64,000 nt of DNA from the IMG/VR virus record IMGVR_UViG_3300035670_000028, positions 1 through 64,000 of that record; one strand, written 5' to 3'. The notes under the pieces were generated by a model. The model did no database searches. It saw only the letters and a list, made by a program, of their open reading frames with translations, and was not told the DNA's origin. Source of the DNA: a virus. Positions 3,728 through 64,000 of the stretch are shown in pieces. The first letter of the stretch is position 1. The number at the start of each line of letters is the position of its first letter. The position numbers and the translations under genes are program-made.

Positions 3728-4074
3728 GCAGTGATTCTCCGTCTGGCGACCGCCGCCAAAATGGATGGAACGAGTATTCCAAGCTCGTCCTCAAGGAACT
3801 GGAGACCCTCGCCGACAGCATCGACAGCCTGCGCACCGAGATCCAGCAGGTGAAGCAGGAGATCGCCAAGATGCAGGTTCGGGAGGACAAGGTGAATGAG
3901 CTCAAGGACTGGAAGGCCAAGATGGACGAGGCCGCCACACCGACCCAGATCAAGGAGGTCGTCAAGCAGGTGGATGACCTCAAGCTCTTTAAGACCAAGG
4001 CGATCACAGTGTTCGCAGTGGTGCAGTTTCTGATGGCAGCTTTTGCGCTGCTGATCAGATTTATCGATAGGTGA
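3724..4074 (+). CDS. Coiled-coil protein with C-terminal transmembrane helix (possibly holin-like)
   Basis: Heptad-rich body, hydrophobic tail AITVFAVVQFLMAAFALLI, ATGA overlap with the PAS gene. Confidence 0.55.
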   Translation: MSSDSPSGDRRQNGWNEYSKLVLKELETLADSIDSLRTEIQQVKQEIAKMQVREDKVNELKDWKAKMDEAATPTQIKEVVKQVDDLKLFKTKAITVFAVVQFLMAAFALLIRFIDR

Positions 4075-10440: not shown

Positions 10441-10483
10441 TGAATACCTATAGTAAGATCACAGATAATCAGGAGCAAAGATA

Positions 10484-48685: not shown

Positions 48686-51235
48686 ATGATCAAGTCGCCC
48701 GCATCGATACTGTTCGACATCAACGGCATTGCGACAGCAGTGTCCGCCTCGGACCAGCCAACGTCAGGCGCCCTGGGGCATGTGATGGCAGGCTTCGACG
48801 AGACGAAGTCGGTCAGGTACGCCTCATTCATCGGTGATGCCCTCAAGGTCGATGGCCTCGTGAATATCGCCTCGAGCGATTCGTTCTCGAGCGCAATCGT
48901 GGGCAGCAGGTACAACCAGCTGGAGATCGCCTACGATTCCACCGATCCTGACAGCATCGATAAGATAACTGTCACGAAATCGAACGGCGGCGATGCCATC
49001 AACTCAGGTGGCCAGGCTGTTTTCAGTACCTCAGTGGCCACGAACGGCGGGATCAAGGCAGTAACTGATGCCACCGTATCCTACCGCCCGCACGCTGAGG
49101 TGTACGCTGCCTTCACCTGCATATTCACGGCAGGGGTTGCTGATAGCTACCAGCGGATCGGCATCTACGATAGCAACAACGGATTCTTCATCGGATACGA
49201 GGGCACCTCGTTCGGAGTAACGATCCGCAAGGCAGGCTCCGATACAACCACCGCCCGCGCCTCCTTCAACCTGGATACTCTCACCGGCGCCTCGGACTCG
49301 AAGTACACCCGCGCTGGAGTTCCTGAAACCCTGGATCCCACGAAGGATAACCTCTACCGGATCAGGTACGGGTGGCTGGGCGCAGCACCGATCGTATTCG
49401 AGGTGCTATCACCGGATGGCGGCTGGGTGCCATTCCACATCATCAGGCACCCGAACACCAACGCTGCAACCACGATCAACGATCCTGACCTCCCGATCAC
49501 CCTGGATGCGCAGAAAACTGCAGGCGCCACCAACATCACAATGTCGACCGCCTGCTGGGCTGCTGGCACCACGAGCGATCTTGACCGAGTAACTGCCACG
49601 ATATCTGATGATACTCTGGCGAAGCTGACCAGATCTGTTATAGCCGGCCAAACAACCGGCGGCGGTGGCGGATACGTGAACGTGAAGGTTACGCCGAGCG
49701 GTGCCCTCACGGTAGAGATCGATGATGGCGGCGGCAGCATCACCGTGGATGGCGTGATCACTGGATCAGGTGATGTTGGCATCCTCAGGCAGGCGGCCAC
49801 CCGCGATCTCTTCATCACCGGCTCAGTGGGTATCACGGAGGCACACGGGGTATTCAGCGGCACCCTCCCATCCACCGGAATGCCGGCAGGGTTCTCCGAT
49901 GGCACCCTCATGCAGGCTGCACGGGTGTACGATCTGAACACCTCCACGGGATCGGCGAACGAGGAGCACGTGCTCGGTGTGAGCCTGCGCTCGAGCAGCG
50001 TTTCAGGATCCCAGGAGCTGGGCACGATCTCGAACCCGCTCATCACCTCACCCGGCCCATACGGGAAAACGGTTTTCGGTGAGGAGAGGGTTGCCCTCCC
50101 ATTCGCCCTCGCTGATCTTATCAACAAGTACGAGATCACTCCCACCGAGTACTCCACGCTAACGAGCTCGGTTGGCACTCCCACGATCCTGCACGTTCCG
50201 GATGAATCTGCCATCCGGCTAACTGTGGATGGCACATCCGGGAGCTTCGGCAGGCTCCGCACGAACACCTTCTACCGGTACCAATCCGGCAAGGGGCAGA
50301 ACATCAAGATGACCCTGTACCACGGTGATACAGGCGAATCTGATCAGGTGAGGCGGTGGGGCTACTTCGATGAGGGTGATGGCCTCTTCTTCCAGCTATC
50401 GGGCTCGAACCTGGGCGTAGTGGAGAGGAAATCCACCACTGGATCCCCCACCGAGCTGTTCTACTCCCAATCTGCCTGGAACGTGGATCCCCTAGATGGC
50501 ACCGGCCCGAGCGGGATCACCCTCGATATCACGAAGAGCCAGATATACGAGATCAGGTTCCAGTGGCTGGGCGTAGGATTCGTTGATTATTACATCAACG
50601 GATATCGGATCCACAATATCCAGCACGCGAACCTCGTTTCCGGCCCCTACATGAAAACAGGCCAGCTTCCACTATCCTGGGAGGTGGAGAACAACCTCTC
50701 ATCATCAGCAGGGAGCATGACAACAGTGTGCTCATCCGTTCTTTCTGAGAACGGAGAGCCACCCCCAGAGTTCAGCTTCGCCGCCTTCAACTCCACCCCT
50801 GTGAGCGTAACCACAACCGAGGTTCCGGTCCTGAGCATCCGCCCGAAGGCAACCTACAATGGGATAACGAACAGGATCATCACCCTCCCGAAGAAATCCG
50901 TGGTTTCCACTGAGGGCTCGCGCATATCCTACCGGATCCTGTACAATGCAACCCTCACCGGCGCCTCATGGGCATCCGTGGCATCCACATCCGGAACCGA
51001 GTTCGATGTATCTGCCTCTGCATTCACGGGCGGCGAAACACTGTTCTACGGGTTCCTTCCCAACAGCAATGATGCCGAGGGCGCTGAGCTGGAGAAGTAC
51101 TTCAGCATCCTGGCCAGGAAGCTGCGCCAGAACGCATTCGCCACAGGTGTTGATACCCTCACGATCGTGGCGAGGAACGAGGCTGCAGGTTCAACCTCAG
51201 TGCGCGCAGCACTGGTATTCACAGAGGTGCGGTGA
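48686..51235 (+). CDS. Large beta-rich virion protein with two related domains (fibre/receptor-binding-like)
   Basis: Duplicated R.G..D...G.F, .N.D.L.G and Y.I...WLG motifs. Confidence 0.65.
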   Translation: MIKSPASILFDINGIATAVSASDQPTSGALGHVMAGFDETKSVRYASFIGDALKVDGLVNIASSDSFSSAIVGSRYNQLEIAYDSTDPDSIDKITVTKSNGGDAINSGGQAVFSTSVATNGGIKAVTDATVSYRPHAEVYAAFTCIFTAGVADSYQRIGIYDSNNGFFIGYEGTSFGVTIRKAGSDTTTARASFNLDTLTGASDSKYTRAGVPETLDPTKDNLYRIRYGWLGAAPIVFEVLSPDGGWVPFHIIRHPNTNAATTINDPDLPITLDAQKTAGATNITMSTACWAAGTTSDLDRVTATISDDTLAKLTRSVIAGQTTGGGGGYVNVKVTPSGALTVEIDDGGGSITVDGVITGSGDVGILRQAATRDLFITGSVGITEAHGVFSGTLPSTGMPAGFSDGTLMQAARVYDLNTSTGSANEEHVLGVSLRSSSVSGSQELGTISNPLITSPGPYGKTVFGEERVALPFALADLINKYEITPTEYSTLTSSVGTPTILHVPDESAIRLTVDGTSGSFGRLRTNTFYRYQSGKGQNIKMTLYHGDTGESDQVRRWGYFDEGDGLFFQLSGSNLGVVERKSTTGSPTELFYSQSAWNVDPLDGTGPSGITLDITKSQIYEIRFQWLGVGFVDYYINGYRIHNIQHANLVSGPYMKTGQLPLSWEVENNLSSSAGSMTTVCSSVLSENGEPPPEFSFAAFNSTPVSVTTTEVPVLSIRPKATYNGITNRIITLPKKSVVSTEGSRISYRILYNATLTGASWASVASTSGTEFDVSASAFTGGETLFYGFLPNSNDAEGAELEKYFSILARKLRQNAFATGVDTLTIVARNEAAGSTSVRAALVFTEVR

Positions 51236-51648
51236 TGGCCACATTCGATACAGATAGGATAACCACAACCCGCCTCGATTCCTGGGCCGAGATCAGGAAG
51301 TACCTCGATGGCACGATCGCCTCACTCGCCTTCCAGTTCGATGATCGCGGGGATTTCTACACGATCATCACCGAGCCGTACGCAGGGATCACCCTGCAGT
51401 ACTCGATCAAGAAGGATGATGGGCCCGAGCAGAGCGATTTCGAGAACAACTACAAGGATCTGGCACCCCGCCGAACTGGAACCTTCGATGGGAACAGTAA
51501 TGCAACTCTGGTTACCAGCAATGGGCAGAGCGTGCAGATCGTTAACTCGCTCCGCCTCGAGCAGCTCCTATCCCAGGTGCTGCAGGAGCTGAAGAGGATG
51601 AATTCTCAGCTGCAGATAATTACAGATGAGGAAAACGATCTACTATAG
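51232..51648 (+). CDS. Hypothetical protein
   Basis: GTGA overlap; C-terminal coiled coil. Confidence 0.65.
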   Translation: MMATFDTDRITTTRLDSWAEIRKYLDGTIASLAFQFDDRGDFYTIITEPYAGITLQYSIKKDDGPEQSDFENNYKDLAPRRTGTFDGNSNATLVTSNGQSVQIVNSLRLEQLLSQVLQELKRMNSQLQIITDEENDLL

Positions 51649-51666
51649 AGCACTGGAGATGAACCG

Positions 51667-52242
51667 ATGAACTACATTCAGGATGGAACCGGCAAGGGCT
51701 ATCTCGCCGAGGTAACAGAGCACAATCAGCTTTCGATCGCAGGAATCGCAGATACGAGCTATGATGCTGCCTCCCAAACGGGGGAGAGCTTCAACGTGAA
51801 CACGGAGTTCGTTTCGATCACAGTTGGCACAGAAACCCCCCTGTTCTACTTCAAGAACAATGAATCGAATCCAGCAGTGATCGTGGGTTGGTTCATCGGA
51901 ATTGGGCTAGCCGGCGGCGCTGCCACCGAGAACGCGATCCTTCGAACGTATGCGAATCCCACTTCAGTTTCCGGTGGAGTTAGCCTAACAACCGTGAACA
52001 GAACGATCGGATCAGGCAGAACCTTCTCCTTCGATGCGAAGAAGCAGGATAGCGGAACTCCACTCACCGGCACACTGCCATCAACTCCGGTCCTGTACCA
52101 AACGCAAACGGCATCATCCCGCGTGTTCGGAAACGTGTACCTCACCGTTCCAAAGGGCAACTCGCTGATCGTTACGTGCCAGCTGAACGGTGCACAAACA
52201 GCGAACATTTACACAGGCTTCACCGGCTTCGTGGCAGGATGA
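51667..52242 (+). CDS. Virion-protein-like paralog 1
   Basis: N-terminal IQDGTGKGYLAEVTEHNQL. Confidence 0.65.
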   Translation: MNYIQDGTGKGYLAEVTEHNQLSIAGIADTSYDAASQTGESFNVNTEFVSITVGTETPLFYFKNNESNPAVIVGWFIGIGLAGGAATENAILRTYANPTSVSGGVSLTTVNRTIGSGRTFSFDAKKQDSGTPLTGTLPSTPVLYQTQTASSRVFGNVYLTVPKGNSLIVTCQLNGAQTANIYTGFTGFVAG

Positions 52243-52258
52243 GGAGAAGGAGCACACC

Positions 52259-52846
52259 ATGGCAAGAATAGAGGATGGCAGGGGCAAGGGATTCCAGGTA
52301 GCTGTTGATTCCACCAACCGGTTGGAGGTTCACGCTGCCACTGTTGATGAGGAGAGAGTTGCAACCATCGATGGTGAGGCATGGCAGTTTGGCAGTGCCA
52401 CGGTTGCCTTCACGGCAGCAACAGCATCCGCGATCCTGTTCGTGAAGAACACCGATACAAGAGATATGGTTATCGATCGCCTCCGCCTGCACCTAGGCAC
52501 GGTCACGGGAGGCACCGGAGATTGGACACTGGGAATCGTTAGGAATCCCACCGCGGGAACCCTAGTTTCTGCCGGCACTGTGATCACGCCCACGAACATC
52601 AACCACGGATCATCGAAGGAGCCAACCGGCACGTTCCTCCGCGGAGTGCAGGGCTCAACCCTCACTGATGGCACCACCTCATCATTCCCGATCAAGTCAT
52701 CGGGAGATGGAATCATCATCTTCCCGTTCGGCAGGATCCTGCCAACAGGTGCCTCGATCGGGATCAGCGTGACCCCACCAACAGGCACCACCGCAGCGAA
52801 CGCGGTGGCAGTTCTGAGGGGCTACTACCCAGCTGCAGATGTGTGA
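52259..52846 (+). CDS. Virion-protein-like paralog 2
   Basis: IEDGRGKGFQVAVDSTNRL; AAGGAG RBS. Confidence 0.65.
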   Translation: MARIEDGRGKGFQVAVDSTNRLEVHAATVDEERVATIDGEAWQFGSATVAFTAATASAILFVKNTDTRDMVIDRLRLHLGTVTGGTGDWTLGIVRNPTAGTLVSAGTVITPTNINHGSSKEPTGTFLRGVQGSTLTDGTTSSFPIKSSGDGIIIFPFGRILPTGASIGISVTPPTGTTAANAVAVLRGYYPAADV

Positions 52847-52860
52847 GGGCGTGAGGGCAG

Positions 52861-53490
52861 ATGATTAAGAACCTCATAGTAGATGGAGAGGGCTCCGGGA
52901 GGATCGCCGCTGTAACCCCCCAGAATGCCCTCAAGGTCCTGCCCCTGCCCACCACATCCCGCGGATTCACGGCGCGCGAGCTCGCCAGCCTGCGCATATA
53001 CCGAGAGTTCCTCAGCAACACAGCCGGCTCCACCGAGATGGCAGTGGATGGCTCGGTCACGAACGTGGAGTTCAGAATTGTTGCTGCCAGCACCCAAACG
53101 AAGTGGATCAAGCAGCTCAGGTTCACCCTCGAGGATGCGAACATGGAGCTCACCACATCAGATTTCCGTAGGTTCGGAGCAGCAACTGCAACGAACACGC
53201 CCCTCACCAATGGGATCCAGATCGAGGCAGTGCAGGGAGGAATACTCACCAATATTGCTGCCGAGCCGATCACCGTTCTCGGAGACTTCCTCAACTACGC
53301 GGATGCCTACCTCAACTTCTCGAACGCGATCTCCACGAACGAGGATTTCGTGCTCTTCGACTTCGACTTCATGACTCCAGTTGTGCTCGTGCCAGGAAGC
53401 AACGATTACATAGCAGTTCGCATAAGGGACAACCTCACCGCAGTGAACACGTTCAGGTGCCTCGGAAGGGGGATCGCGGAGATTCTATGA
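52861..53490 (+). CDS. Virion-protein-like paralog 3
   Basis: IVDGEGSGRIAAVTPQNAL. Confidence 0.65.
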   Translation: MIKNLIVDGEGSGRIAAVTPQNALKVLPLPTTSRGFTARELASLRIYREFLSNTAGSTEMAVDGSVTNVEFRIVAASTQTKWIKQLRFTLEDANMELTTSDFRRFGAATATNTPLTNGIQIEAVQGGILTNIAAEPITVLGDFLNYADAYLNFSNAISTNEDFVLFDFDFMTPVVLVPGSNDYIAVRIRDNLTAVNTFRCLGRGIAEIL

Positions 53491-54909: not shown

Positions 54910-54910
54910 G

Positions 54911-55717
54911 GTGCCCGAAGGCAGCGAAGTCAAGCTGTTCGGAGAGTCCCTCGCGAAGGTTGTGTCTGGAAAGGACATTACTTCTGTTGATGTGATCTCC
55001 GGGCGGTACGCGAAGAGCGATGTTGAGGGTCTGGACCTGCTTAAGGCTCGACTTCCGACGAAGGTGGTGGGAATTGGAGTGCACGGCAAGTTCCTGTACT
55101 GGATTGTCACCAACGACGTCTTCATCTACAACACGCTGGGCATGACTGGCAGCTGGTCGACCCAGGAGACGAAGCACTCGCGCGTGGTGTTCCAGCTGAG
55201 TGACGGCGTGAGCGTCTACTTCAACGATCAGAGGAACTTTGGCACGCTCAAGATGGTTCCAGGACGAGACGAGCTCGTGAAGAAGCTGAAGTCGCTGGGC
55301 CCTGATATGCTCTCTGAGGCCGTTTCGGACGCGAGGTTCACAGAGAGCCTCATGAAGCGCCCAGAGTGGACGCTGGCAGAGGCAGTGATGGACCAGAGCC
55401 TGATCTCCGGCGTGGGCAACTACGTCAAGGCGGAGTCCCTCTACAGAGCACAGCTCTCTCCGCACAGGCAGGTGCAGTCGCTCTCGCCCACTGACATGTC
55501 CCGACTGCGCCAGAGCATTCAGCTCGTCCTCAACGAGGCGTACAGGAGGGGAGGTGCCTCGATTCAGACCTACCGTGACTTCGAGGGCAATGAGGGCGAA
55601 TACACCCAGAGGTTCCTCGTCTATAATAGGGACCAAGATCCAAACGGCAATAGTGTCGTGCGTGAGAAGACAGCAGACGGCAGGACCACGCACTGGGTTC
55701 CTGCAGTTCAAAAGTGA
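54911..55717 (+). CDS. Fpg/Nei-family DNA glycosylase (zincless finger type)
   Basis: N-terminal PEGSEV, HGKF, LGMTG, DQRNFG, LGPD, H2TH SGVGNY; C-terminal GRTTHWVPAVQ without Cys4. Confidence 0.9.
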   Translation: MPEGSEVKLFGESLAKVVSGKDITSVDVISGRYAKSDVEGLDLLKARLPTKVVGIGVHGKFLYWIVTNDVFIYNTLGMTGSWSTQETKHSRVVFQLSDGVSVYFNDQRNFGTLKMVPGRDELVKKLKSLGPDMLSEAVSDARFTESLMKRPEWTLAEAVMDQSLISGVGNYVKAESLYRAQLSPHRQVQSLSPTDMSRLRQSIQLVLNEAYRRGGASIQTYRDFEGNEGEYTQRFLVYNRDQDPNGNSVVREKTADGRTTHWVPAVQK

Positions 55718-55723
55718 GGCAAT

Positions 55724-55987
55724 ATGGAAAACGAGACCACATACACATTCTCCCCCGAGCTGCTCGCCACTGTGGCACAGCTCCTTCAGCTGGCGATCCT
55801 CACAGGCACTGACCTGTATGATCACCTCCAGACCCTACAGATGGTTGTCCAGGACGGAAAGCTGCACGTGAGCGCGGAGTTCAAGCAGAAGCTGGCCGAA
55901 GAGATCACTCGTCTCACGTCCCAGGCTGAGTCCTTGGCAACGCAGCAGCTCTCCTTTGGCTTCAAGCTCGACCAGAGCGGCAACTGA
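55724..55987 (+). CDS. Hypothetical protein
   Basis: GAGG RBS; located within the operon. Confidence 0.65.
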   Translation: MENETTYTFSPELLATVAQLLQLAILTGTDLYDHLQTLQMVVQDGKLHVSAEFKQKLAEEITRLTSQAESLATQQLSFGFKLDQSGN

Positions 55988-55995
55988 GGCGACAA

Positions 55996-56376
55996 ATGGA
56001 GTCGGATGATAAGCTTCGACACATGTTTGAGCTGCGTGAGCAGTTCATGCGTGCACTAAAGTCTCAGAAGTCGAGCATCTACCCAAAGTGGCCTGTCGAC
56101 CTCGCCGACAAGAAGTCACAGCAGGCCATTCGGGACACCGCGCTGAAGGGCGTCGAGGAGGTGTTCGAGGCGATGCAGCACTGCAAGAACTGGAAGCCCC
56201 ACCGGGTGACCGAGGATCGATCATTCGATCGTGAGAAGTTCCTCGAGGAGATGGTGGACGCCTTCAACTACTTCTTCTCCGTGCTCGTTCTCACTGGAGT
56301 GACCGCAGATGAGCTCCACGAGGCCTACGTCGAGAAGGATAGGATCATCCACGAGCGCCTGAAGTCGGGGTACTGA
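55996..56376 (+). CDS. All-alpha NTP pyrophosphatase (dimeric dUTPase/MazG-like)
   Basis: EEVFEA..NWKPH..FLEEMVDAFNY. Confidence 0.75.
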   Translation: MESDDKLRHMFELREQFMRALKSQKSSIYPKWPVDLADKKSQQAIRDTALKGVEEVFEAMQHCKNWKPHRVTEDRSFDREKFLEEMVDAFNYFFSVLVLTGVTADELHEAYVEKDRIIHERLKSGY

Positions 56377-57329
56377 TGTCGTTCGAGACAATCTCAGGTG
56401 CCCTCACGCGCCAGAGGGCCTACTCTGACAAATTCTTCGAGCCCGGAGGCCTCTCTGTCAAGGAGAAGGAGGAGATCACAAAGACCTTCGCCCTCTCCTT
56501 GCACACCGAGGTCTCCGAGATCGCATCCGCGGTCAATTTTAAGGACCACCGGCGCGTCCAGGAGCCTGTCGACCACAATAAACTGCTGTACAAGTCTGTG
56601 GACGCCTTCAGGTACGTGCTCGCCCTGCTCAACCTGTGGGAAATTGACTCCCAGACCTTCATTCAGGCCTGCGAGGACAAGGACCTGTACCTCAACCGAC
56701 GCCACCTTGAGTCGGAGAGGACCCGCGGCGACCGTCCTGTTGTCATTTTTGACGCCGACGACGTGATCGCTGAGTTCCGGGCAGCATTTTTCGAGTGGCT
56801 GGACCAAAAGTGGGGCATTAAGGCTGACATTAACGACAAGCAGTACTACAGCGCAGCTGAGATGCAGAAGGGCGGAGTCGACTCTGAGACCGCGTTCAGC
56901 ACTTTCATCGCAGACGGGGGCTTTAGGACGCTCGGAGTCAATGGCCACGCCTTCGAGGCGATGCGAATGTGTCAGGAGGCGGGATTTTGGGTCCAGATTC
57001 TCACCGCGAGGCCCTCTGGGAACCTGAAGTGCTTCTACGACACTCACCGATGGCTCCACGAGGCCAAAATTCCCTACGACAGCGTCGCTTTCTCACCAGA
57101 GAAGTACTTGTGGCTCGTCGGACAGGACTTTTACTCAAAAAAGCAGCTCGTCTGCGTCGTGGATGACTCCTCCAAGCACGCGTCTGAGTTCGCCAAGCAC
57201 GGAGTGCCCGTAATTGTGCCCGTTAAGTCCTACAATGAGGACACGCAGGGCATTAAGGGCATCACTCGAGTGGACTTCTCACACGTCGGTGGCCGCGGGC
57301 TGTTCGACCTGATCAGAAGTCACGCCTGA
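56376..57329 (+). CDS. Degenerate MazG-like domain fused to a HAD 5'-nucleotidase-like domain
   Basis: N-terminal EVSEI..NFKDH..VDAFRY; HAD motifs FDADDV, LTARP, K, VVDDS. Confidence 0.7.
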   Translation: MSFETISGALTRQRAYSDKFFEPGGLSVKEKEEITKTFALSLHTEVSEIASAVNFKDHRRVQEPVDHNKLLYKSVDAFRYVLALLNLWEIDSQTFIQACEDKDLYLNRRHLESERTRGDRPVVIFDADDVIAEFRAAFFEWLDQKWGIKADINDKQYYSAAEMQKGGVDSETAFSTFIADGGFRTLGVNGHAFEAMRMCQEAGFWVQILTARPSGNLKCFYDTHRWLHEAKIPYDSVAFSPEKYLWLVGQDFYSKKQLVCVVDDSSKHASEFAKHGVPVIVPVKSYNEDTQGIKGITRVDFSHVGGRGLFDLIRSHA

Positions 57330-57341
57330 GTCCCGTTTCAC

Positions 57342-57369
57342 TGTACATTGTCGCCTAGATTGTTAGATT
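57342..57369 (+). promoter_or_regulatory. Sigma70-like promoter (TGTACA-N16-TAGATT)
   Basis: Upstream of the thyX-like gene. Confidence 0.5.
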
Positions 57370-57400
57370 TGACTGCCTCTCACGAAGGAAGGAATGTAGA

Positions 57401-58381
57401 ATGCCGCTGAATAAGGATTTGGAGCCCATTGAGCTTCCGATGGAGCTCAAGTTTGGTAGACCTGTCAAGACTGAGTACCTCAATGCCCTCGACGCGCTCA
57501 AGGTCGAGCTCGTGGACCACCCCACACGTCAACAGGCGTGGAATGTCGCGTGGCACTACGTCAAGGCGACGTGGGCCGATCGCCCGGACATCGATCCGTC
57601 TCGTGCGACAGAGCACGAGCTCTCCAAGAACCTCGAGGACGTGTTCGGCGGCAGGACCCTGCCCGCTCCGATGGAGTGCCTAGGCTTCACGTTCCGCCTC
57701 AGTGGCCTCTCCTTCCAGGATGTGACCCACATCATTCGCCACCGAGCTGGAACGTTCGCCGCGCAGTGCACAGGTGATCGCGACCTCCGCGACGATGCAG
57801 CAGTCATTCCTGAGCCCGTCCAGAACTCCCCCGAGTTCCTCGAGCGCTGGAAGCAGATCGTGGACGACGCGAAGGAGCTCTACGCCGACATGACCGACTC
57901 CAAGGTCGTCTCGATGATGGACGCTCGCCTCATCCTGCCGAAGTGCATGACCTCGTTCTACTACATGCGCCTGCCCCTCAAGGACCTCGTCGGGTTCATC
58001 TATCAGCGTAAAGATGTTGCAATCCAAACCGCCAGTGACAATATTCTTGCCGTTAAAATGGCTGTTGAAGTTGCAAAGGTCATTCCTGAGTTCACTTCTA
58101 TGATTGATTTTGATAAGCCTGACATGCATTTTGTAAAGACATTTAGAGTCAAGGACGGTGATAAGTGGGTTTCTAGAGGAACAAACTTGTATTGGCCTGC
58201 ACAGAAGAACGATATTTTCGAATATCACCCGAATGACACGATTTATCAGTCGACCAGAGAAGATCTCAATGGCACTGATGGTGTGGGTCCACAGAAGAAG
58301 TTCACAGAGCATTGGAACGCAGGCCTCGCTGAGTTCAATCAGATCAAGTCTGATTATAATGCCTGGCGTTCTCAAAAGTGA
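57401..58381 (+). CDS. thyX: Divergent flavin-dependent thymidylate synthase-like protein
   Basis: PMEC.GFTF, RHR-X7-C in place of RHR-X7-S, DARLILP. Confidence 0.7.
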   Translation: MPLNKDLEPIELPMELKFGRPVKTEYLNALDALKVELVDHPTRQQAWNVAWHYVKATWADRPDIDPSRATEHELSKNLEDVFGGRTLPAPMECLGFTFRLSGLSFQDVTHIIRHRAGTFAAQCTGDRDLRDDAAVIPEPVQNSPEFLERWKQIVDDAKELYADMTDSKVVSMMDARLILPKCMTSFYYMRLPLKDLVGFIYQRKDVAIQTASDNILAVKMAVEVAKVIPEFTSMIDFDKPDMHFVKTFRVKDGDKWVSRGTNLYWPAQKNDIFEYHPNDTIYQSTREDLNGTDGVGPQKKFTEHWNAGLAEFNQIKSDYNAWRSQK

Positions 58382-58389
58382 TTAGTACT

Positions 58390-58403
58390 TTCTAGTACTA
58401 GAA
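58390..58403. promoter_or_regulatory. 14-bp palindrome TTCTAGTACTAGAA, candidate operator
   Basis: Perfect palindrome directly before ATAGTTA (58406) and the RHH gene. Confidence 0.45.
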
Positions 58404-58417
58404 GCATAGTTATCCTC

Positions 58418-58600
58418 ATGAAGCAAGAAAAGATCTCAATTGATATGGACACACATCGTCTTCTCAAAGTCTACTGTGCTGAGAGAGATTTAAAGATGGG
58501 TGCCTTTGTCGCGAGACTGATTCGAGAGAGGATTAGCGATGAACGAGAAAATTTGCGCCCAGTGCAAGACAAGATTTTTGCCAAAGAATCGATTAAGTAA
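58418..58600 (+). CDS. Ribbon-helix-helix DNA-binding protein
   Basis: KISIDMDTHRLLKVYCAERDLKMGAFVARLI strand-helix-helix pattern. Confidence 0.65.
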   Translation: MKQEKISIDMDTHRLLKVYCAERDLKMGAFVARLIRERISDERENLRPVQDKIFAKESIK

Positions 58601-59435
58601 TAAGTCTGGTTTCTTCTTCTGTTCAAAAGAGTGCATTTATCTTGCACAAAAGAAGAACGGTGTCACGTATGAGCTTCGTCGAAAGAGATCGTTAGAAAAG
58701 TACGGTAAAGACTTTCCAATCTCTTGTGATGAGATCAAAGAAAAGCGCAAGAAGAATAATATTGAAAAGTATGGTGTTGCTAATACGTTTGAGCTTGATG
58801 CTGTTAAAGAGAAGACAAAGAAGACCACACGTGAGCGATATGGTGTCGATGTCTACTCACAAACCATAGAATTCAAGTCTAAAATTGAGGAAACAAATCT
58901 AAAGAGATTTGGGTACAAGTCTCCAATAGAAAATCCTGATATTCTCGCACAGCGCCGTCAAACAATGACAGACCGATATGGTGGACCATCAACTTTAGAG
59001 TCGCCTATTCTACGTGAAAAAATGGAAGCGACTTGTCGTGATTTGTTTGGAACATCGAATATAGTCATGTCACCGCAGTTTATTTCATCATCTATGGATA
59101 AGAAATTGCTAAAGACACACGGCAAGACATGGCAGCAGTACATAGATGATCTACCAGCTCTTCAGGATTATCGTCGTAAAGTTGAACACATTACACGGCA
59201 GCAAGCAGTTGAAACTTTGCCCTACTATGATAAATGGGGTGAATATCATCTTGATCACAAATTTTCTATTGCTGAAGGATTTAGGCAAGGGTTATCACCA
59301 GAAATCATTGGAAATATTGCAAATTTGGAATTTATTCCTGCCCACGAAAATATGAGTAAGCAGGATGATTGTTCAATTGACAAGCATAGTCTACTATTAG
59401 AAATTGAGAGGATGAAAGGTCATAACAATGAGTGA
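58539..59435 (+). CDS. Putative HNH homing endonuclease with (E/K)KYG repeats
   Basis: CAQC..FCSKEC; repeated EKYG/ERYG; YHLDHKFSI..GNIANL..IPAHENMSK; AT-rich. Confidence 0.75.
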   Translation: MNEKICAQCKTRFLPKNRLSNKSGFFFCSKECIYLAQKKNGVTYELRRKRSLEKYGKDFPISCDEIKEKRKKNNIEKYGVANTFELDAVKEKTKKTTRERYGVDVYSQTIEFKSKIEETNLKRFGYKSPIENPDILAQRRQTMTDRYGGPSTLESPILREKMEATCRDLFGTSNIVMSPQFISSSMDKKLLKTHGKTWQQYIDDLPALQDYRRKVEHITRQQAVETLPYYDKWGEYHLDHKFSIAEGFRQGLSPEIIGNIANLEFIPAHENMSKQDDCSIDKHSLLLEIERMKGHNNE

Positions 59436-59901
59436 AAATAAGTTTGGACGTACTTTGAAGATGTATCTTGCCGCAGGCTGGTTCAATCCCGTTCAGGATG
59501 CTGAACTCACTAGACTTGAACAGATCATGGAGGCACGTAAGGACTGGATTGAGATGGCGTCTCCTCGTCGTATCTTCATCTGTCCGCCAAATGCTTCGCG
59601 CGAGGTTCAAGATGCGACATATCAGGGCAATCTGAAGCACATTCGAGAAGCAGATTTTCTTGTAGTCAATACGCGCGACAAGGATCTAGGGACTATTATG
59701 GAGTGTGGATATGCCACTGCTTTCGACAAGCACATCATCTACTTCTGTGCTGGACTTCCTGCCGGCGCAAAGTTCAACCTGATGTTGAGCAGGTCAGGTG
59801 CGCGTGTGTGCACGACCTTCGAGCAGCTTGAGGACTACCTGGATCGCTGCAAGGCGGCAGGCGAGATGCTGTACGAGCCCTACGACAAGGAAATTGAGTG
59901 A
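59428..59901 (+). CDS. Nucleoside 2-deoxyribosyltransferase/N-glycosidase family protein
   Basis: YLAAGWF, ADFLVV..D.GTIMECGYA, FNLML. Confidence 0.8.
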   Translation: MSENKFGRTLKMYLAAGWFNPVQDAELTRLEQIMEARKDWIEMASPRRIFICPPNASREVQDATYQGNLKHIREADFLVVNTRDKDLGTIMECGYATAFDKHIIYFCAGLPAGAKFNLMLSRSGARVCTTFEQLEDYLDRCKAAGEMLYEPYDKEIE

Positions 59902-60062
59902 GAAGGCTCCTGCTCGAGGATGTCCTCCTGATTGCTGCTCTCCAATCCTCTAGACCGAGTGACTGGCGGCACGCACTTCAGGAGGTGCCTCGGGAGGATG
60001 CCCTTTTGATTGCCAGGAAGAATGTCCTGGACTGGGTACCAAGCAAGGAGGAGGCGTCGTGA
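59898..60062 (+). CDS. Small hypothetical protein (54 aa, below the ORF-track cutoff)
   Basis: GTGA overlaps at both ends fill the gap exactly. Confidence 0.45.
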   Translation: MRRLLLEDVLLIAALQSSRPSDWRHALQEVPREDALLIARKNVLDWVPSKEEAS

Positions 60063-61036
60063 GAGTTCTAGTGACAGGCCACGCGGGTTTCATCGCCCGA
60101 AATCTGGTTGGAGCGTTCGGTCGACTGGGCCACACTGTGGTCGACGTCGCCTCCCGGACACTTGTTCGAAATAACAAGGGTGAGCCCTGCGTCCACAGGA
60201 ACAGCGAGTTCGCCTGGTGGTCGTACCTCGTCGACGAGCGGATCGACCTGGTGGTGCACAACGCTGCTGTGGTTGGCACCGATGTCGTTGCGCTCAGTCC
60301 TGAGGAGTCCACGCTGAGCAACGTGATGGGCACACACACTATTTGCCGTGCAGCGCGCAAGGCAAAGATCCCAGTGTGCTACATGGGCACGTCAGTCATC
60401 TACAACACGCCCAAGTATCAGCGTGAGCCGATCACCGAGCGCAGCGAGCAGCTTCCGGGCACCTTCTATGGCGCGCAGAAGCTCGCGTCGGAGCACATCG
60501 TCATGTCGACTGTTCCCGAGTGGCTCATCATGCGGCCGCTCTTCGCCTACGGTGGTGTCGGTGACATGAACTCCCTCGTCGCAAAGGGATTCTACGCCCT
60601 GCACAACGACCGAACAGGTGTGGACATGTTCCTCGATCCCCGCAAGAGCAAGGACTACATGCATGTGGAGGACTTCTGCGACGCCGTCGCTCTCGCCTGC
60701 GACAGGGGCCTGTGGTGCCAGGACTTCAACGTGTCCGCAGAGGAGCCGCTGGAGACAGGTCACATCGTGGACCTCATGTCGGAGGTCGCCGGCGATGACA
60801 TCGGACGGAGGCTCGTGTGGCGCCCGGAGACAGACTACCTCGGAAATCACCTCCTGTCATCCCAGAAGTTCCGAGATGCGACCGGGTGGAAACCTAGGTT
60901 GCCGTTCAGGGAGGGTCTCCGTCAGTCTTGGAGAAGCATCTGCAGTGGCTCTGGGGGCTATGATCCCCTCCAGCACCTGGACTCCGCCCGTGCTCGTGGT
61001 ACCGATCTCGTGGACTACTTCCCAAAGGCGAAGTGA
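60059..61036 (+). CDS. NAD-dependent epimerase/dehydratase (extended SDR)
   Basis: VLVTGHAGFIA, VHNAA, YGAQK, DYMHVED. Confidence 0.88.
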   Translation: MRVLVTGHAGFIARNLVGAFGRLGHTVVDVASRTLVRNNKGEPCVHRNSEFAWWSYLVDERIDLVVHNAAVVGTDVVALSPEESTLSNVMGTHTICRAARKAKIPVCYMGTSVIYNTPKYQREPITERSEQLPGTFYGAQKLASEHIVMSTVPEWLIMRPLFAYGGVGDMNSLVAKGFYALHNDRTGVDMFLDPRKSKDYMHVEDFCDAVALACDRGLWCQDFNVSAEEPLETGHIVDLMSEVAGDDIGRRLVWRPETDYLGNHLLSSQKFRDATGWKPRLPFREGLRQSWRSICSGSGGYDPLQHLDSARARGTDLVDYFPKAK

Positions 61037-61567: not shown

Positions 61568-61870
61568 ATGCGGTCAGACTGTTTAACAGACTTACCGAAG
61601 ACAGGTGACCTCGTTCGCGGCACTCGAGAGTTTGGGTCCTGCATCGAGGCCCAATTGTGGAACGAGAACTTTGTGATGTCGTACCCAGACGAGCCTTGGG
61701 ACACTGCGACTATTGCAGTGTATATTGAGCCGGTCTCCCGAGAGGAGCTTGGTGAGATTAGTCCAAGGGTTCCTCACAGTGGCCTTGGTCCGTTCCACCG
61801 GATCTTCTACAAGAATCGGGTGTGGCTTGTGTACGGCGATGATTCACTGGAAGCTGTGAAAGGAGAGTGA
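61568..61870 (+). CDS. Small GDLV-motif (KOW/SH3-like) protein
   Basis: PKTGDLVRG. Confidence 0.55.
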   Translation: MRSDCLTDLPKTGDLVRGTREFGSCIEAQLWNENFVMSYPDEPWDTATIAVYIEPVSREELGEISPRVPHSGLGPFHRIFYKNRVWLVYGDDSLEAVKGE

Positions 61871-62217
61871 GCGAGATGAGCGAGATTGAGAGTGCTGAGG
61901 CACCGGTGGAGAAGAGAATTACACAGGCCCTGATCGATAATGCCTTCAGCTGCCTCGATGGCCACGGGCGGCTAACCTATGCTAGGGATGAGTGCTGCAC
62001 GATCCAGCAGGTTCTGCGGGAGGCCCACGGTGTGCACCTCTCCCTGAACGAGTGCCGGCGCTTCTGGGAGTGGAGATCGGGGCTGTGGGATGCTTCCTTC
62101 CTCACGCTGGGAGGGGCGGATGAACCGGGCACCCGGAAGGAGATCCTCGAGTTCTTCACCGAGTGGCTGGATGAGCTGGATATCTGGGAGTGGAACACTG
62201 CGGAAGAGGAGGATTGA
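61867..62217 (+). CDS. Hypothetical protein
   Basis: AAGGAG RBS; GTGA overlap. Confidence 0.6.
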   Translation: MSEMSEIESAEAPVEKRITQALIDNAFSCLDGHGRLTYARDECCTIQQVLREAHGVHLSLNECRRFWEWRSGLWDASFLTLGGADEPGTRKEILEFFTEWLDELDIWEWNTAEEED

Positions 62218-62218
62218 G

Positions 62219-62677
62219 ATGATCAAGAAGAGGAAGGGCTGGTTCAGGCACATTAAGCCGAGCTCCCCGGTGTGCCCGAGGAAGCCGGAGAGGATGCTGA
62301 AGCGCGAGAGGCTAACGATCCTGTATGAACACTGCGGGAGCAGGATGAACCTATCAGAGATTCCCCTCCCCGAGGGGAAGGGCCTGGCTGATATCCAGCT
62401 GAGCGCTAGCGGGGATGAGGATGGTGATATCACCCTCGAGTTCTACACCCGGGAGGAGTACGAGGAGGAGAACCCCCACTACGAGCGCGAGATGAAGCAC
62501 TACAAGGCAGTGTACGCCAAGTACGAGCAGCTGAGGGATGAGTTCAAGGCCGAGCTAGCTGAGTGGAAGGCGTGGAATGCCGAGCAGGATGCTGCTGATG
62601 TGAAGGAGCGCCTCGAGGCTGCAGAGAGGCTGCTCCGCCAGCACGGCCGGCTCCCTGGAGGCCCGAGTGTGGGCTGA
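62219..62677 (+). CDS. Hypothetical coiled-coil protein
   Basis: GAGGAGG RBS before MIKKRK. Confidence 0.6.
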   Translation: MIKKRKGWFRHIKPSSPVCPRKPERMLKRERLTILYEHCGSRMNLSEIPLPEGKGLADIQLSASGDEDGDITLEFYTREEYEEENPHYEREMKHYKAVYAKYEQLRDEFKAELAEWKAWNAEQDAADVKERLEAAERLLRQHGRLPGGPSVG

Positions 62678-62969
62678 TCCTGATCGGGCCATCCTAACCT
62701 ACCCACTCTTTGCGGGAGGCACCCTGGAGTTCGGGTGGGCCCGCTCCGGTGGCGGCATGAGCGTGGGCACGAATCCCCTCATGGCCCGCGTGCTAGTGCC
62801 ACCCTCTGGCGGCGAGTATCCCTCCGGCTGGTTCGTGGTGCAGGGCAAGCGCTCGCTCATCAAGGTGAAGGCCGAGTTCGATACCTACGGTGGTTTCATC
62901 CCAGATTGGCTCCGCGCAGATATGTTCGAGCACCACTACAACCTCCTCAGGATAGGCACCAGTGCGTGA
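62667..62969 (+). CDS. Hypothetical protein
   Basis: GGAGG RBS before the GTG start. Confidence 0.5.
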   Translation: MWADPDRAILTYPLFAGGTLEFGWARSGGGMSVGTNPLMARVLVPPSGGEYPSGWFVVQGKRSLIKVKAEFDTYGGFIPDWLRADMFEHHYNLLRIGTSA

Positions 62970-63051
62970 TCTGGCTCGCGAGCTGAGGAGGGGAGATCTC
63001 GTGCGGATCACGCGGTGCATGGTTAAGTTGCAGCGTGGGGATTCAACCTAA
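62962..63051 (+). pseudogene. Truncated copy of the GDLV gene start
   Basis: VRDLARELRRGDLVRITR... stops after 29 codons; matches the start of 63422..63712. Confidence 0.5.
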
Positions 63052-63057
63052 TACTTA
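63051..63057 (+). promoter_or_regulatory. ATACTTA putative late promoter, apparently leaderless
   Basis: Ends 5 nt before the ATG at 63063; no RBS. Confidence 0.55.
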
Positions 63058-63062
63058 TCACC

Positions 63063-63332
63063 ATGCGAATCACACTCAACGAGCTCCGCCTGATCATCAG
63101 GGAGGCGCTGGCTCAGCCCATGGAGTTCAAGCAGGCCGAGGAGCTCTACTCTGAACTGATCATGGGTGCCATGAGGGATAACCGCGGGAATGTTTCCGCC
63201 ATGCAGGCCGCCATGCGTGCCATCCCCGATCAGGTGCTCAAGCTCACCGGGTGGAGTGTGGAGGAGATCCAGGCAGGAACCGAGCGGGAAACCCGCGAGA
63301 GGATCGCGGCCATGAAGCAGGGCCGGCCCTGA
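63063..63332 (+). CDS. Leader-bearing small protein
   Basis: MRITLNELRLIIREAL. Confidence 0.7.
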   Translation: MRITLNELRLIIREALAQPMEFKQAEELYSELIMGAMRDNRGNVSAMQAAMRAIPDQVLKLTGWSVEEIQAGTERETRERIAAMKQGRP

Positions 63333-63357
63333 ACATTCCCGCCCACCCGGCTACAAT
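63330..63357 (+). promoter_or_regulatory. Sigma70-like promoter (TGAACA-N16-TACAAT)
   Basis: Matches the recurrent early-type motif. Confidence 0.5.
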
Positions 63358-63421
63358 TAGGCCAGGATGAGCAAGATTATAATTCCAGAGGATTACTCGG
63401 CCCCAACCCGGATGAGCACCA

Positions 63422-63712
63422 GTGCGTGATCTGCAGGCAGGAGATCTCGTGCGGATCACCCGGCAGCCAACTGATGATCCCCGCGCTGGGTGCTCCCACT
63501 TCTGGTGCGAGGAGGCTGGGCTATCCCTCCCCATCCCCTGGGGCACCGGCTGCCTGGTGGTTGATGTTGATGGCAGGAGCTCGCTGGGTAACGAGCTCAT
63601 TCACTTCATACATGAGGAGCGCGTGTTCGCGATCACCAAGTACCAGGTTGACTACTCGCACCCAGCGGGCCGAGTGGTGAGGCACCTGTGGTGCGAGCTG
63701 GTGGGAGGCTGA
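63422..63712 (+). CDS. Small GDLV-motif protein
   Basis: LQAGDLVRIT..G.GCLVV. Confidence 0.55.
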   Translation: MRDLQAGDLVRITRQPTDDPRAGCSHFWCEEAGLSLPIPWGTGCLVVDVDGRSSLGNELIHFIHEERVFAITKYQVDYSHPAGRVVRHLWCELVGG

Positions 63713-63715
63713 GAG

Positions 63716-63952
63716 GTGAAAGAATTCAGCAGCACCATCAGGCCCGGCGATCTCGTTCGCCCGAACCACTCGCGCGAGCACAATAAGAACAATGTGGGGA
63801 TCGTTCTCGAGATCTGCCAGCATCCACTTGCTGAGAGCGAGTTCATGGCACTCGTAATGTGGCCAGCGAATCCACCGGTGGAGCCAGCCTGGTTCCGGGC
63901 AGGTGGGCTGGAGAGGGTATCCCGTGCAAATGGGATGGGAGATGGGGTATAG
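63716..63952 (+). CDS. Small GDLV-motif protein
   Basis: IRPGDLVRP..VGIVLEI..VMW..LERVS. Confidence 0.6.
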   Translation: MKEFSSTIRPGDLVRPNHSREHNKNNVGIVLEICQHPLAESEFMALVMWPANPPVEPAWFRAGGLERVSRANGMGDGV

Positions 63953-63953
63953 T
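63925..63953 (+). promoter_or_regulatory. Sigma70-like promoter (TGCAAA-N17-TATAGT)
   Basis: ATG at 63960 lies 6 nt after the -10 box; that ORF runs off the window end. Confidence 0.45.
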
Positions 63954-64000
63954 GGTACCATGGAGGAAGTGATGGCTGAGCCCAAGTGGAAGAAGTGCAG

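What the first reader, a model, noticed from the sequence alone, without database searches (positions are those of the whole stretch)
61791..64000. Tract B: 2.2 kb with a single GWC site
Seen: an independent second tract, over unrelated small genes, has one GAC (63650) and no GTC (about 69 expected at uniform base use). It shows the same junction avoidance (CTA ACC, CTA TCA, GAA ACC, GTA TCC). It carries the same leader and promoter motifs as the rest of the genome, so the donor was probably a related phage. Inference: the genome is a mosaic of GWC-rich and GWC-free lineages. Tract B is less eroded than tract A and may be a more recent acquisition.
Basis: partly seen in the sequence, partly recalled or inferred. 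Interest (0 to 1): 0.8.

Follow-up and report, generated by a model that had tools for sequence, protein, structure and literature searches.

The report
GAC/GTC-free gene cassette shared between phages
A giant freshwater phage carries kilobase-long blocks of small genes from which the three-letter DNA words GAC and GTC have been almost wholly removed without changing the proteins; related phages swap these blocks, so something not yet identified reads this very short word.

Summary
Positions 61791-64000 hold one GAC/GTC (63650) against about 78 expected (P about 7e-33). The tract runs on to about 68.9 kb of the 147-kb contig, with 5 sites against 245 expected, and is one of five such islands.

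The purge acts on the nucleotide sequence, not on codon choice. It affects all three codon phases and the intergenic DNA, and the proteins are kept.

The mosaic reading is largely supported by new comparative evidence:
- Homologous GWC-free DNA sits in four other metagenomic phage contigs, each between GWC-rich flanks.
- GWC-free segments are about 92% identical between phages, while the backbones are about 73% identical.
- The jump in identity falls at 61873, the start of the first tract gene.
- Genes that are half GWC-rich and half GWC-free exist.
- 182 substitutions separate two copies of the cassette, yet neither has gained a site (21 expected), so selection against GWC is still acting or acted until very recently.

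No wholly GWC-free donor genome was found. "Recent acquisition" therefore cannot be told apart from continuing selection on the cassette. What reads the word is unknown; I favour a DNA-level nuclease over an RNase.

This scan has noted similar GWC-free blocks in other giant freshwater phages (e1-5337455, e1-5337450).

The parts
61789..64000 (.). Window part of GWC-free island B. The island continues to about 68875-69000 of the contig.
   Evidence: 1 GWC against 78 expected. The whole island has 5 against 245.
61867..61876 (+). Recombination junction. Identity to relative L054 switches here from about 70% to about 93-95%, at the ribosome-binding site and start of the first cassette gene.
   Evidence: Pairwise alignment.
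61568..61870 (+). GWC-rich GDLV microgene flanking the island (13 GWC). It uses GGTGACCTCGTT where tract copies use GGTGATCTCGTG.
61876..62217 (+). First cassette gene (113 aa, no family). It has 0 GWC. A GWC-rich copy at about 70% identity lies elsewhere in L051.
62219..62677 (+). Cassette gene of 152 aa, with a basic N-terminus and an acidic coiled-coil C-terminus. It has 0 GWC. Homologs at 50-91% led to the related GWC-free contigs.
62667..62969 (+). Cassette gene of 100 aa with 0 GWC.
63051..63057 (+). ATACTTA promoter-like word. The contig has 34 copies on the + strand and 3 on the - strand, mostly just upstream of genes, structural genes included.
63063..63332 (+). 89-aa gene with the shared N-terminal leader MRITLNELRLIIRE. 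It has 0 GWC. The identical protein occurs in three other assemblies.
63422..63712 (+). GDLV microgene holding the only GWC of the interval (GAC at 63650, an in-frame Asp codon).
63716..63952 (+). GDLV microgene with 0 GWC.
48972..53283 (+). Island A: structural-gene module with 16 GWC against 151 expected. Its left edge lies inside the 849-aa virion protein gene (48686-51235).

Best explanation
Tract B is the first 2.2 kb of a cassette of about 7.2 kb holding some 25 small genes. They include GDLV microgenes, leader-tagged putative capsid cargo and orphan genes. The cassette is inserted between a sugar-epimerase-like gene and dnaE of a giant myovirus.

Shown:
- The cassette, and four other islands in the contig, have been cleared of GAC/GTC in all codon phases and in intergenic DNA, while the protein sequences are kept.
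- This DNA belongs to a gene pool exchanged horizontally among related phages by recombination. Junctions fall at gene starts and also inside genes.
- The pool has gone on diverging without ever creating the word, so purifying selection against GWC is real and long-lasting.

Inferred:
- The word is read as DNA. A reader of the single asymmetric word GAC on double-stranded DNA forbids GAC and GTC on both strands automatically. Virus-encoded nickases with 3-base sites (Nt.CviPII, Nt.CviQII) are a precedent. An RNase would need a G[A/U]C specificity.
- Because this genome still holds about 4,900 sites, the selection most likely acts on the cassette DNA in another setting. That could be carrier phages not yet sampled, or the moment of transfer between co-infecting phages.
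- I think it less likely that the purge protects this genome as a whole.
For: - Depletion: 1 against 78 in the interval; 5 against 245 in the island; 33 against 632 over all five islands. GWC is the only strongly depleted word.
- Nucleotide-level selection: 2 out-of-frame sites against 57.5 expected. Asp is GAT in 94-98% of codons although the other two-fold codon families prefer C. A codon alignment with the GWC-rich allele L048 shows synonymous removal in phases 0, 1 and 2.
- Insertion: in relatives, dnaE is flanked directly by the homologs of 60059-61036 and 75692-76663.
- Exchange: contigs L051-L055 carry homologous GWC-free DNA between GWC-rich flanks. The identity jump falls at 61873. 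In 90-nt windows, identity is 0.92 where both are GWC-free, 0.73 where both are GWC-rich, and 0.71-0.73 where they are mixed. L051 has a chimeric gene.
- Distinct signature: the tetranucleotide correlation is 0.69-0.91 between tracts and 0.47-0.72 between tract and backbone. A simulated purge of backbone DNA does not close the gap.
- Low-GC relative G003: it has GWC-free patches in a GDLV array, and that array is richer in GC than its backbone.
- Maintained avoidance: 182 substitutions, 21 expected gains, 0 seen.
- Not an artefact: L049 is 100% identical across the junction, and Logan contigs show the same gene order.
Against: - No wholly GWC-free genome or long contig was found. That covers about 45 related loci, a 309-kb relative and a 200-kb relative, so the supposed outside setting is hypothetical.
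- Zero gains in both diverged copies fits continuing selection inside the present genomes at least as well.
- No nuclease, RNase or modification enzyme with GWC specificity is known to me or was found in the literature searches.
- The specificity of the contig's one DNA methyltransferase (76669-77460) is unknown.
- The simulated purge is crude, so part of the shared signature may be a side effect of avoidance.
Confidence: 0.55

Rival explanations
1. Selection acts in place, in this phage, and at the RNA level. Island genes must be translated while an endoribonuclease that cuts G[A/U]C is active, either a host toxin or a virion-delivered phage enzyme. Their messages have lost every site, in the way that GhoT mRNA lacks the GCU sites cut by MqsR. 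Exchange between phages only moves the modules around.
For: - Avoidance persists through 182 substitutions in two resident copies.
- Every instance seen is an island inside a GWC-rich genome.
- In L056 the pattern alternates on a gene-sized scale, free and rich stretches of about 200-530 nt side by side.
- Islands are made mostly of small accessory genes, with large genes such as dnaE left GWC-rich between them.
- Earlier scan notes report conserved GWC-free blocks of small genes in other giant phages (not checked here).
Against: - Orthologs are not consistently free. The 191-aa gene is GWC-rich in L048 and L045-47. The 113-aa gene has a GWC-rich copy in L051. GDLV genes occur in both states within this contig.
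- Chimeric genes carry 10-12 sites in their 5' part and none downstream, which gives no protection to the message.
- The islands mix gene classes: virion structural genes (A) and genes behind the promoter word that also precedes structural genes.
- An RNase would need a degenerate G[A/U]C specificity, whereas a single DNA word explains both strands.
Confidence: 0.25
2. Leading-region protection at the DNA level, as in the phage T5 first-step-transfer region. The islands enter or are exposed first and must stay uncut until anti-restriction functions are made.
For: - Island E runs off the contig end, and the island in G003 lies at a contig end.
- Earlier scan notes named T5 first-step-transfer DNA as the closest known case.
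- T5 and BF23 biology is described in PMC10644984.
Against: - There are five separate islands spread over 100 kb.
- dnaE, which has one of the highest GWC densities among the large genes (47.6 per kb), sits between islands B and C.
- The islands include structural genes and genes behind the structural-gene promoter word.
- The contig ends are assembly ends, not shown to be genome ends.
Confidence: 0.07
3. Mutational decay rather than selection. Methylated or deaminated cytosines in a GWC context are lost, as CpG is lost in vertebrates.
For: GAT/ATC and AAC/GTT are enriched in the tracts.
Against: - Every one-step neighbour of GWC is enriched, including CAC/GTG, GTA/TAC and GAA/TTC, not only the deamination products.
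- GC3 in the tracts is higher than in the backbone.
- Runs of up to 2.1 kb with no site and sharp edges cannot come from mutational bias.
- No C5 methyltransferase is found in the contig.
Confidence: 0.03
4. Assembly chimera of two co-occurring strains, or another sequencing artefact.
For: Several related phages occur in the same samples.
Against: - A separate JGI contig, L049, is 100% identical over 60640-64679, which covers the junction.
- Logan contigs from two runs show the same gene order. The exact 849-aa protein that spans the edge of island A is also in a Logan assembly.
- Relatives show the same architecture.
Confidence: 0.02

Closest known systems
Restriction-site avoidance in phage genomes (Rusinov et al. 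2018, PMC6286503; Rusinov et al. 2015, PMC4687349)
   Same: A short word is selectively lost on both strands, by synonymous change, with the proteins kept. A DNA-cutting defence is the presumed cause.
   Different: Here the word has only 3 bases, and no restriction enzyme with that site is known to me. The loss is nearly total, but it is confined to kilobase islands in a genome that keeps about 4,900 sites. It therefore cannot protect the present genome from cutting.
Hyperplastic regions and modular shuffling in T4-type phages (Arbiol et al. 2010, PMC2839356; Comeau et al. 2014, PMC4122927)
   Same: Arrays of small genes of unknown function, variable between lineages, lie between conserved core genes. 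They are exchanged between related phages, with junctions at gene boundaries and short conserved motifs at each gene start.
   Different: No word-free composition has been described for those regions, to my knowledge. The promoter/stem-loop cassettes (PeSLs) were not identified here. The repeated element here is a 24-nt coding motif, the GDLV gene start.
First-step-transfer (pre-early) DNA of T5/BF23 (PMC10644984; Davison and Brunel 1979, cited there)
   Same: A local part of a phage genome whose restriction-site content is examined separately because it enters the cell first. That the T5 first-step-transfer DNA lacks EcoRI sites is from my own memory of Davison and Brunel 1979.
   Different: That is a single terminal block of pre-early genes. 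Here there are five scattered islands of mixed gene classes, with a site-rich dnaE in between.
Interferase-immune messages: GhoT mRNA and MqsR (GCU) (PMC4905990)
   Same: A three-base word is absent from particular messages, which makes them immune to a nuclease that cuts nearly everything else.
   Different: That case acts on RNA and concerns single genes. Here intergenic DNA is cleared too, orthologs vary in state, and half-cleared genes exist.
Virus-encoded frequent-cutting nickases Nt.CviPII (CCD) and Nt.CviQII (RAG) of chlorella viruses (PMC3017599)
   Same: They show that nucleases reading only three bases exist in giant viruses.
   Different: According to my own memory, not checked in the papers read here, those viruses use the nickases against host DNA. 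They protect themselves by methylation, not by losing the sites. The word also differs, and no such gene was found here.

Membership tests
Restriction-site avoidance | Significant under-representation of one short word on both strands, beyond what composition explains | tested here: met
   Observed/expected = 0.06 in the tracts and 0.94 in the rest. It is the only such word.
Restriction-site avoidance | The word is the recognition site of a restriction system of the host | not testable with these tools
   The host is unknown. No enzyme with a GWC site was found in the literature searches.
Restriction-site avoidance | The depletion covers the genome that has to survive restriction | tested here: not met
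   16.8 kb of 147 kb is depleted. The rest carries 37.6 sites per kb.
T5-type first-step-transfer region | One contiguous block at a genome end | tested here: not met
   There are five islands, and dnaE (47.6 GWC per kb) lies between B and C.
T5-type first-step-transfer region | Contains only pre-early host-takeover genes | tested here: not met
   Island A holds virion structural genes (phrog_1645). Island B holds genes behind the ATAYTTA word that also precedes sheath and other structural genes.
T4-type hyperplastic region with modular shuffling | Arrays of small, lineage-variable ORFs inserted between conserved core genes | tested here: met
   In relatives dnaE abuts the homologs of 60059-61036 and 75692-76663. 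Islands B and C fill those gaps here.
T4-type hyperplastic region with modular shuffling | Recent exchange between related phages, with junctions at module borders | tested here: met
   Identity jumps from 70% to 93% at 61873. Window identity is 0.92 against 0.73.
T4-type hyperplastic region with modular shuffling | Promoter/stem-loop (PeSL) cassettes at the junctions | tested here: inconclusive
   None was recognised. A 24-nt gene-start motif in 11 copies and the ATAYTTA word are the repeated elements. No dedicated terminator scan was made.
Interferase-immune transcripts (MqsR/GhoT type) | Complete messages free of the word | tested here: inconclusive
   Many island genes have 0 sites. However, the 849-aa gene here and the 152-aa gene in L051 carry 10-12 sites in their 5' part.
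Interferase-immune transcripts (MqsR/GhoT type) | A cognate RNase with that specificity | not testable with these tools
   No candidate was identified. The island proteins have no family hits.
Methylation/deamination decay | Loss balanced by an excess of deamination products only, with falling GC | tested here: not met
   All one-step neighbours are enriched. GC3 is 0.61-0.69 in the tracts against 0.58-0.60 in backbone structural and small genes. There is no C5 methyltransferase.

The most novel reading that the evidence does not exclude
Giant freshwater phages or their hosts have an undescribed nuclease that reads only G-W-C (equivalently, GAC on either strand). A pool of phage gene cassettes has adapted by losing every site.

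One concrete form: during mixed infection the winning phage shreds the loser's DNA at GWC. Only GWC-free cassettes then survive as kilobase fragments and are rescued by recombination at short conserved gene-start motifs.

That would explain three things at once: why the cleared DNA is found as islands, why it is far more alike between phages than their backbones, and why avoidance is kept up wherever the cassette resides.
Probability: 0.2. Interest if true: 0.85.

Novelty: new variant of a known kind. Interest (0 to 1): 0.72.

Why it matters
Near-total removal of a three-base word over kilobases needs strong selection at many sites, sustained over a long time. It is therefore a footprint of a molecular reader that nobody has described.

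Because the footprint sits in islands that move between phages, it is also a natural marker for gene flow among giant phages.
- sequence the methylome;
- map DNA and RNA ends in infected cells;
- determine the motif of the nearby orphan methyltransferase.

It would also be a potentially useful frequent-cutting enzyme.

Tried and rejected
Independent contigs were used instead.
- Search for a GWC-free donor, all negative for a wholly GWC-free genome:
  - 25 dnaE loci;
  - 15 loci of the 849-aa protein in viral and metagenome collections;
  - L045-L048;
  - a 20-nt tract word in viral contigs;
  - the island C/E family and the 152-aa family in viral contigs;
  - the 152-aa family in bacterial genomes;
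  - GenBank phages by DNA and protein;
  - the whole 309-kb relative G001, which has no island.
- Several of the closest contigs could not be read because the sample files are too large.
- Family searches of island proteins in Pfam, PHROGs and the Atlas gave nothing apart from the structural protein of island A.
- Breakpoint inside the 849-aa protein: its 97%-identical relative P0092 differs evenly along its length, so this test was uninformative.
- Avoidance of palindromic 4-mers as a sign of a different restriction regime: none in either compartment.
- Codon or translation-level explanation, including queuosine-read NAC/NAU codons: rejected. Out-of-frame and intergenic sites are also gone, and His, Asn and Tyr keep their C-ending codons.
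- CRISPR PAM avoidance: considered and set aside. Only GTC/GAC is lost, not the other GTN words, and local PAM loss gives no protection. PAM depletion in general is weak (PMC4246573).
- Trinucleotide sites of primases (T7 gp4 reads 5'-GTC-3', from my own knowledge): considered. No DnaG-type zinc ribbon is found in the contig, and I see no benefit in DNA that cannot be primed.
- Met-Thr and Trp-Thr dipeptides, which cannot be encoded without GAC: 0 in island B against 3.1 expected, too few to be significant. Three of the residual sites in island A are of this unavoidable kind.
Full report
**1. Observation**

The window is the first 64 kb of a 147,186-bp viral contig. CheckV estimates it as 44% complete. 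It belongs to a giant myovirus with two sheath paralogs of about 1,000 aa, ribonucleotide reductase, a DnaB-type helicase and a DnaE polymerase.

Between 61791 and 64000 there is one GAC (63650) and no GTC. Local base composition predicts 78.4 sites and the backbone density of the window predicts 82.9. Poisson P(<=1) = 7e-33.

With the whole contig in hand, the tract runs from 61789 to about 68875-69000, with 5 sites in 7,086 bp against 245 expected. The contig holds five such islands:

| Island | Contig coordinates | GWC sites |
|---|---|---|
| A | 48972-53283 | 16 |
| B | 61789-68874 | 5 |
| C | 73356-75326 | 11 |
| D | 138398-139927 | 0 |
| E | 145245-147186 (contig end) | 1 |

Together they hold 33 sites, where the rest of the contig (37.6 per kb) predicts 632. 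GWC is the only strongly depleted word for k = 2 to 4. Neither compartment avoids palindromic 4-mers.

**2. The purge is selection on the nucleotide word**

- *Codon phase.* Backbone genes carry GWC in all three phases (20.1, 4.8 and 12.6 per kb). Island-B genes carry 0.4, 0.2 and 0.2 per kb.
- *Junctions.* Re-dealing synonymous codons among the same proteins gives 57.5 out-of-frame sites (range 45-71) for island B, against 2 observed. The figures are 73 against 8 for A and 30 against 3 for C, D and E together.
- *Intergenic DNA.* The intergenic DNA within island B holds none of the island's five sites.
- *Codon usage.* Asp is GAT in 94-98% of island codons. Yet the other two-fold families there prefer C even more than the backbone does: in island A, His CAC is 1.00, Phe TTC 0.98 and Ile ATC 0.79.
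- *Direct comparison.* Contig L048 carries a GWC-rich allele of the 191-aa gene of island A, 80% identical in protein. A codon alignment shows GAC>GAT; GTC>GTG, GTT or GTA; GAG ACG>GAA ACC; CAG ACG>CAA ACG; and TGT CAG>TGC CAG.
- *Substitutes.* All one-step neighbours of GWC are enriched, not only deamination products, and GC3 stays high. This excludes a mutational origin.
- *Residual sites.* Some are unavoidable: ATG ACN (Met-Thr) and TGG ACN (Trp-Thr) cannot be written without GAC.

**3. What the tract contains**

In relatives, dnaE is flanked directly by the homologs of 60059-61036 (a sugar-epimerase-like gene) and 75692-76663. Here those gaps are filled by arrays of small genes, and islands B and C are the GWC-free part of those arrays.

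Island B holds about 25 + strand genes of 55-152 aa:
- A conserved leading trio of 113, 152 and 100 aa.
- Genes with the N-terminal leader MRIT..QL..IIRE, at 63063, 65362 and 65670.
- Many microgenes that begin (V/M)K.GDLV. Their 24-nt start motif occurs 11 times in the 16 kb searched (contig 60001-76000).
- None matches Pfam or PHROGs.

The word ATAYTTA occurs 34 times on the + strand and 3 times on the - strand. It sits just upstream of sheath and other structural genes, and also at 63051, 65330 and 68627 inside island B. The island is therefore not a distinct expression class by this criterion.

The same microgene family has GWC-rich members right beside islands B and D (61568-61870 and 137096-137516). 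They write the motif with GAC where the island copies write GAT.

Island A is different in kind. It is a syntenic structural module: an 849-aa virion protein (phrog_1645) and four small structural-like genes. Its left edge lies about 95 codons inside the 849-aa gene.

**4. It is not an assembly artefact**

- A separate JGI contig (L049, 4,040 bp, sample 3300036770) is 100% identical to 60640-64679 and spans the left edge of island B.
- Logan assemblies of two runs show the same gene order across that edge.
- The exact 849-aa protein that spans the edge of island A is in a Logan contig.

**5. Comparative evidence: the key result**

*Where GWC-free DNA turned up.* Homologs of the 152-aa protein led to contigs L051/L052, L053, L054 and L055. 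Each carries a GWC-free stretch homologous to island B, next to GWC-rich DNA. L054, for example, has no site in its last 2,676 bp.

*The junction.* Against L054, identity is about 70% in the GWC-rich GDLV gene. It switches to 93-95% at 61873, which is the ribosome-binding site and start of the first cassette gene.

*All alignable DNA.* In 90-nt windows:

| State of the two sequences | Median identity | Windows |
|---|---|---|
| Both GWC-free | 0.92 | 47 |
| Both GWC-rich | 0.73 | 30 |
| Mixed | 0.73 (mean 0.71) | 8 |

*Chimeras and patchworks.*
- In L051 the 152-aa gene is a chimera. Its first 200 nt carry 10 sites and are 63-80% identical to ours. The rest has almost none and is 88-98% identical.
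- L051 also has a GWC-rich copy, about 70% identical, of the 113-aa gene elsewhere.
- L056, syntenic with our 128-144 kb, shows a gene-sized patchwork of free and rich stretches where island D lies (44 sites against 95 expected).
- The 200-kb relative G003 (39.5% GC) has GWC-free patches (4 sites against 47 expected, and 0 against 23). They lie in a GDLV-type microgene array that is richer in GC (0.45-0.50) than its backbone. They have no nucleotide similarity to our islands.

*Where it did not turn up.* The distant 309-kb relative G001 has no island at all; its longest gap between sites is 216 nt. None of about 45 other related loci has one.

*Signature.* The islands of this contig share a tetranucleotide signature, with GWC-containing words excluded. 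The correlation is 0.69-0.91 among islands and 0.47-0.72 between island and backbone. A simulated purge of backbone DNA raises this only to 0.55-0.76.

**6. What follows**

GWC state goes with ancestry, not with position or gene identity. The same gene families exist in both states. Half-and-half genes exist. GWC-free DNA of different phages is much more closely related than the genomes it sits in.

Two further points limit that reading.
- Across 2,274 aligned GWC-free bases, our cassette and that of L054 differ by 182 substitutions. About 11-12% of random substitutions would create a GWC, so 21 gains are expected. None is present in either copy (P about 1.5e-8). Avoidance was therefore enforced throughout that divergence. 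The low site count of island B may reflect continuing selection rather than a recent arrival.
- A genome that is GWC-free throughout was never seen. The donor lineage remains an inference.

**7. Mechanism**

*What can be said.* A reader of the word G-W-C imposes strong purifying selection on this DNA pool.

*Why I favour a DNA-level reader (about 0.6 against 0.3 for RNA).* Any protein that reads the single asymmetric word GAC on duplex DNA forbids both GAC and GTC on both strands, which is exactly what is seen. An RNase would need the degenerate specificity G[A/U]C. Nucleases with 3-base sites are known from giant viruses: Nt.CviPII (CCD) and Nt.CviQII (RAG) (PMC3017599).

*Where the selection acts.* This genome retains about 4,900 sites, so the islands cannot protect it from cutting. 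The selection must act on the cassette DNA in another context. That could be unsampled carriers, or transfer between co-infecting phages, where site-free DNA would survive degradation and be rescued by recombination. That last idea is speculative.

*The RNA-level rival.* Messages immune to an interferase, as GhoT mRNA is to MqsR (PMC4905990), fit the island-only distribution and the gene-by-gene patchwork. They are weakened by inconsistent ortholog states, by chimeric genes with many 5' sites, and by the mixture of gene classes.

*The T5-like leading-region model.* Five scattered islands, with a site-rich dnaE between two of them, argue against it.

*A candidate for backbone protection.* An orphan beta-class N6-adenine methyltransferase lies 1.3 kb beyond island C (contig 76669-77460). 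Its best matches are M.RsrI, M.MboIIA and CcrM, and its specificity is unknown. It is worth testing for a GAC motif.

**8. Relation to known things and novelty**

The finding combines two known kinds: motif avoidance (PMC6286503, PMC4687349) and modular shuffling of small-gene arrays in T4-type phages (PMC2839356, PMC4122927). I found no published description of this form: a 3-base word, almost total loss, and confinement to mobile kilobase islands.

Earlier notes of this scan report GWC-free blocks of 16-20 kb of small genes in other giant freshwater phages (e1-5337455, e1-5337450). I could not check them. My data add three things: the identity discontinuity at the island edge, the chimeric genes, and the quantified lack of site gains.

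I class the finding as a new variant of a known kind, with an unidentified reader.

Noticed in passing
window 58001-60000: A low-GC segment (0.40-0.46 against 0.54 for the contig). Its genes are 76-94% identical in protein to locus L015, from a 42%-GC relative. It looks like a separate mosaic import, this time from a low-GC lineage, and it has normal GWC content.
   Followed up: partly
window 54827-59901: A nucleotide-metabolism and repair cluster lies just upstream of island B and is conserved in relatives L053 and L054. By position it comprises: an Fpg/Nei-type DNA glycosylase (54827-55717); a MazG/dUTPase_2-like gene, a faint hit only (55996-56376); a 317-aa unknown; ThyX (57401-58381); and a nucleoside 2-deoxyribosyltransferase-like gene (59428-59901). 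It might point to non-canonical DNA chemistry in the backbone.
   Followed up: no
contig 76669-77460 (beyond the window; L003:16669-17460): An orphan beta-class N6-adenine DNA methyltransferase (PF01555, 148 bits; nearest solved structures M.RsrI, M.MboIIA and CcrM). It lies 1.3 kb downstream of island C and is absent from the dnaE neighbourhoods of relatives.
   Followed up: partly
window 702, 16901, 61141, 63063; contig 65362, 65670: A shared N-terminal leader, MRIT..QL..IIR.E, heads otherwise unrelated small proteins. It resembles a T4-type capsid-targeting and prohead-protease signal. It occurs in both GWC-rich and GWC-free genes.
   Followed up: partly
whole contig, e.g. window 7293, 19272, 43188, 44915, 61077, 63051: The word ATAYTTA occurs 34 times on the + strand against 3 on the - strand, typically 10-40 nt upstream of start codons, including those of sheath and other structural genes. 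It is probably the phage's own (late-type) promoter element.
   Followed up: partly
contig 64380-65084: Four tandem GDLV microgenes with a period of 175-181 nt. Each stop overlaps the next GTG start by about 14 nt.
   Followed up: no
window 7330-13543: Two adjacent tail-sheath paralogs of 1,036 and 1,019 aa, 33% identical over their full length.
   Followed up: no
window 48686-51235: In database relatives of the 849-aa virion protein, only about a third of the protein (roughly residues 60-350) is conserved, at 60-75% identity, while their overall lengths range from about 470 to 1,180 aa. That is the pattern of a fibre or host-range protein with swapped distal domains.
   Followed up: partly
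L076:1-4447 (start of the 200-kb contig G003): A distant relative with 39.5% GC has its own GWC-free patches (4 sites against 47 expected in 1-1616; 0 against 23 in 2922-3763). They lie in a GDLV-type microgene array of raised GC and are unrelated in nucleotide sequence to the islands studied here.
   Followed up: partly
contig 73869-74466 and 146083-146373: A three-member paralog family (VGKLYSCSKYFLLLYPD...), 61-64% identical in protein, is shared between islands C and E. All copies are GWC-poor, and no relatives were found in viral contigs or GenBank phages.
   Followed up: partly
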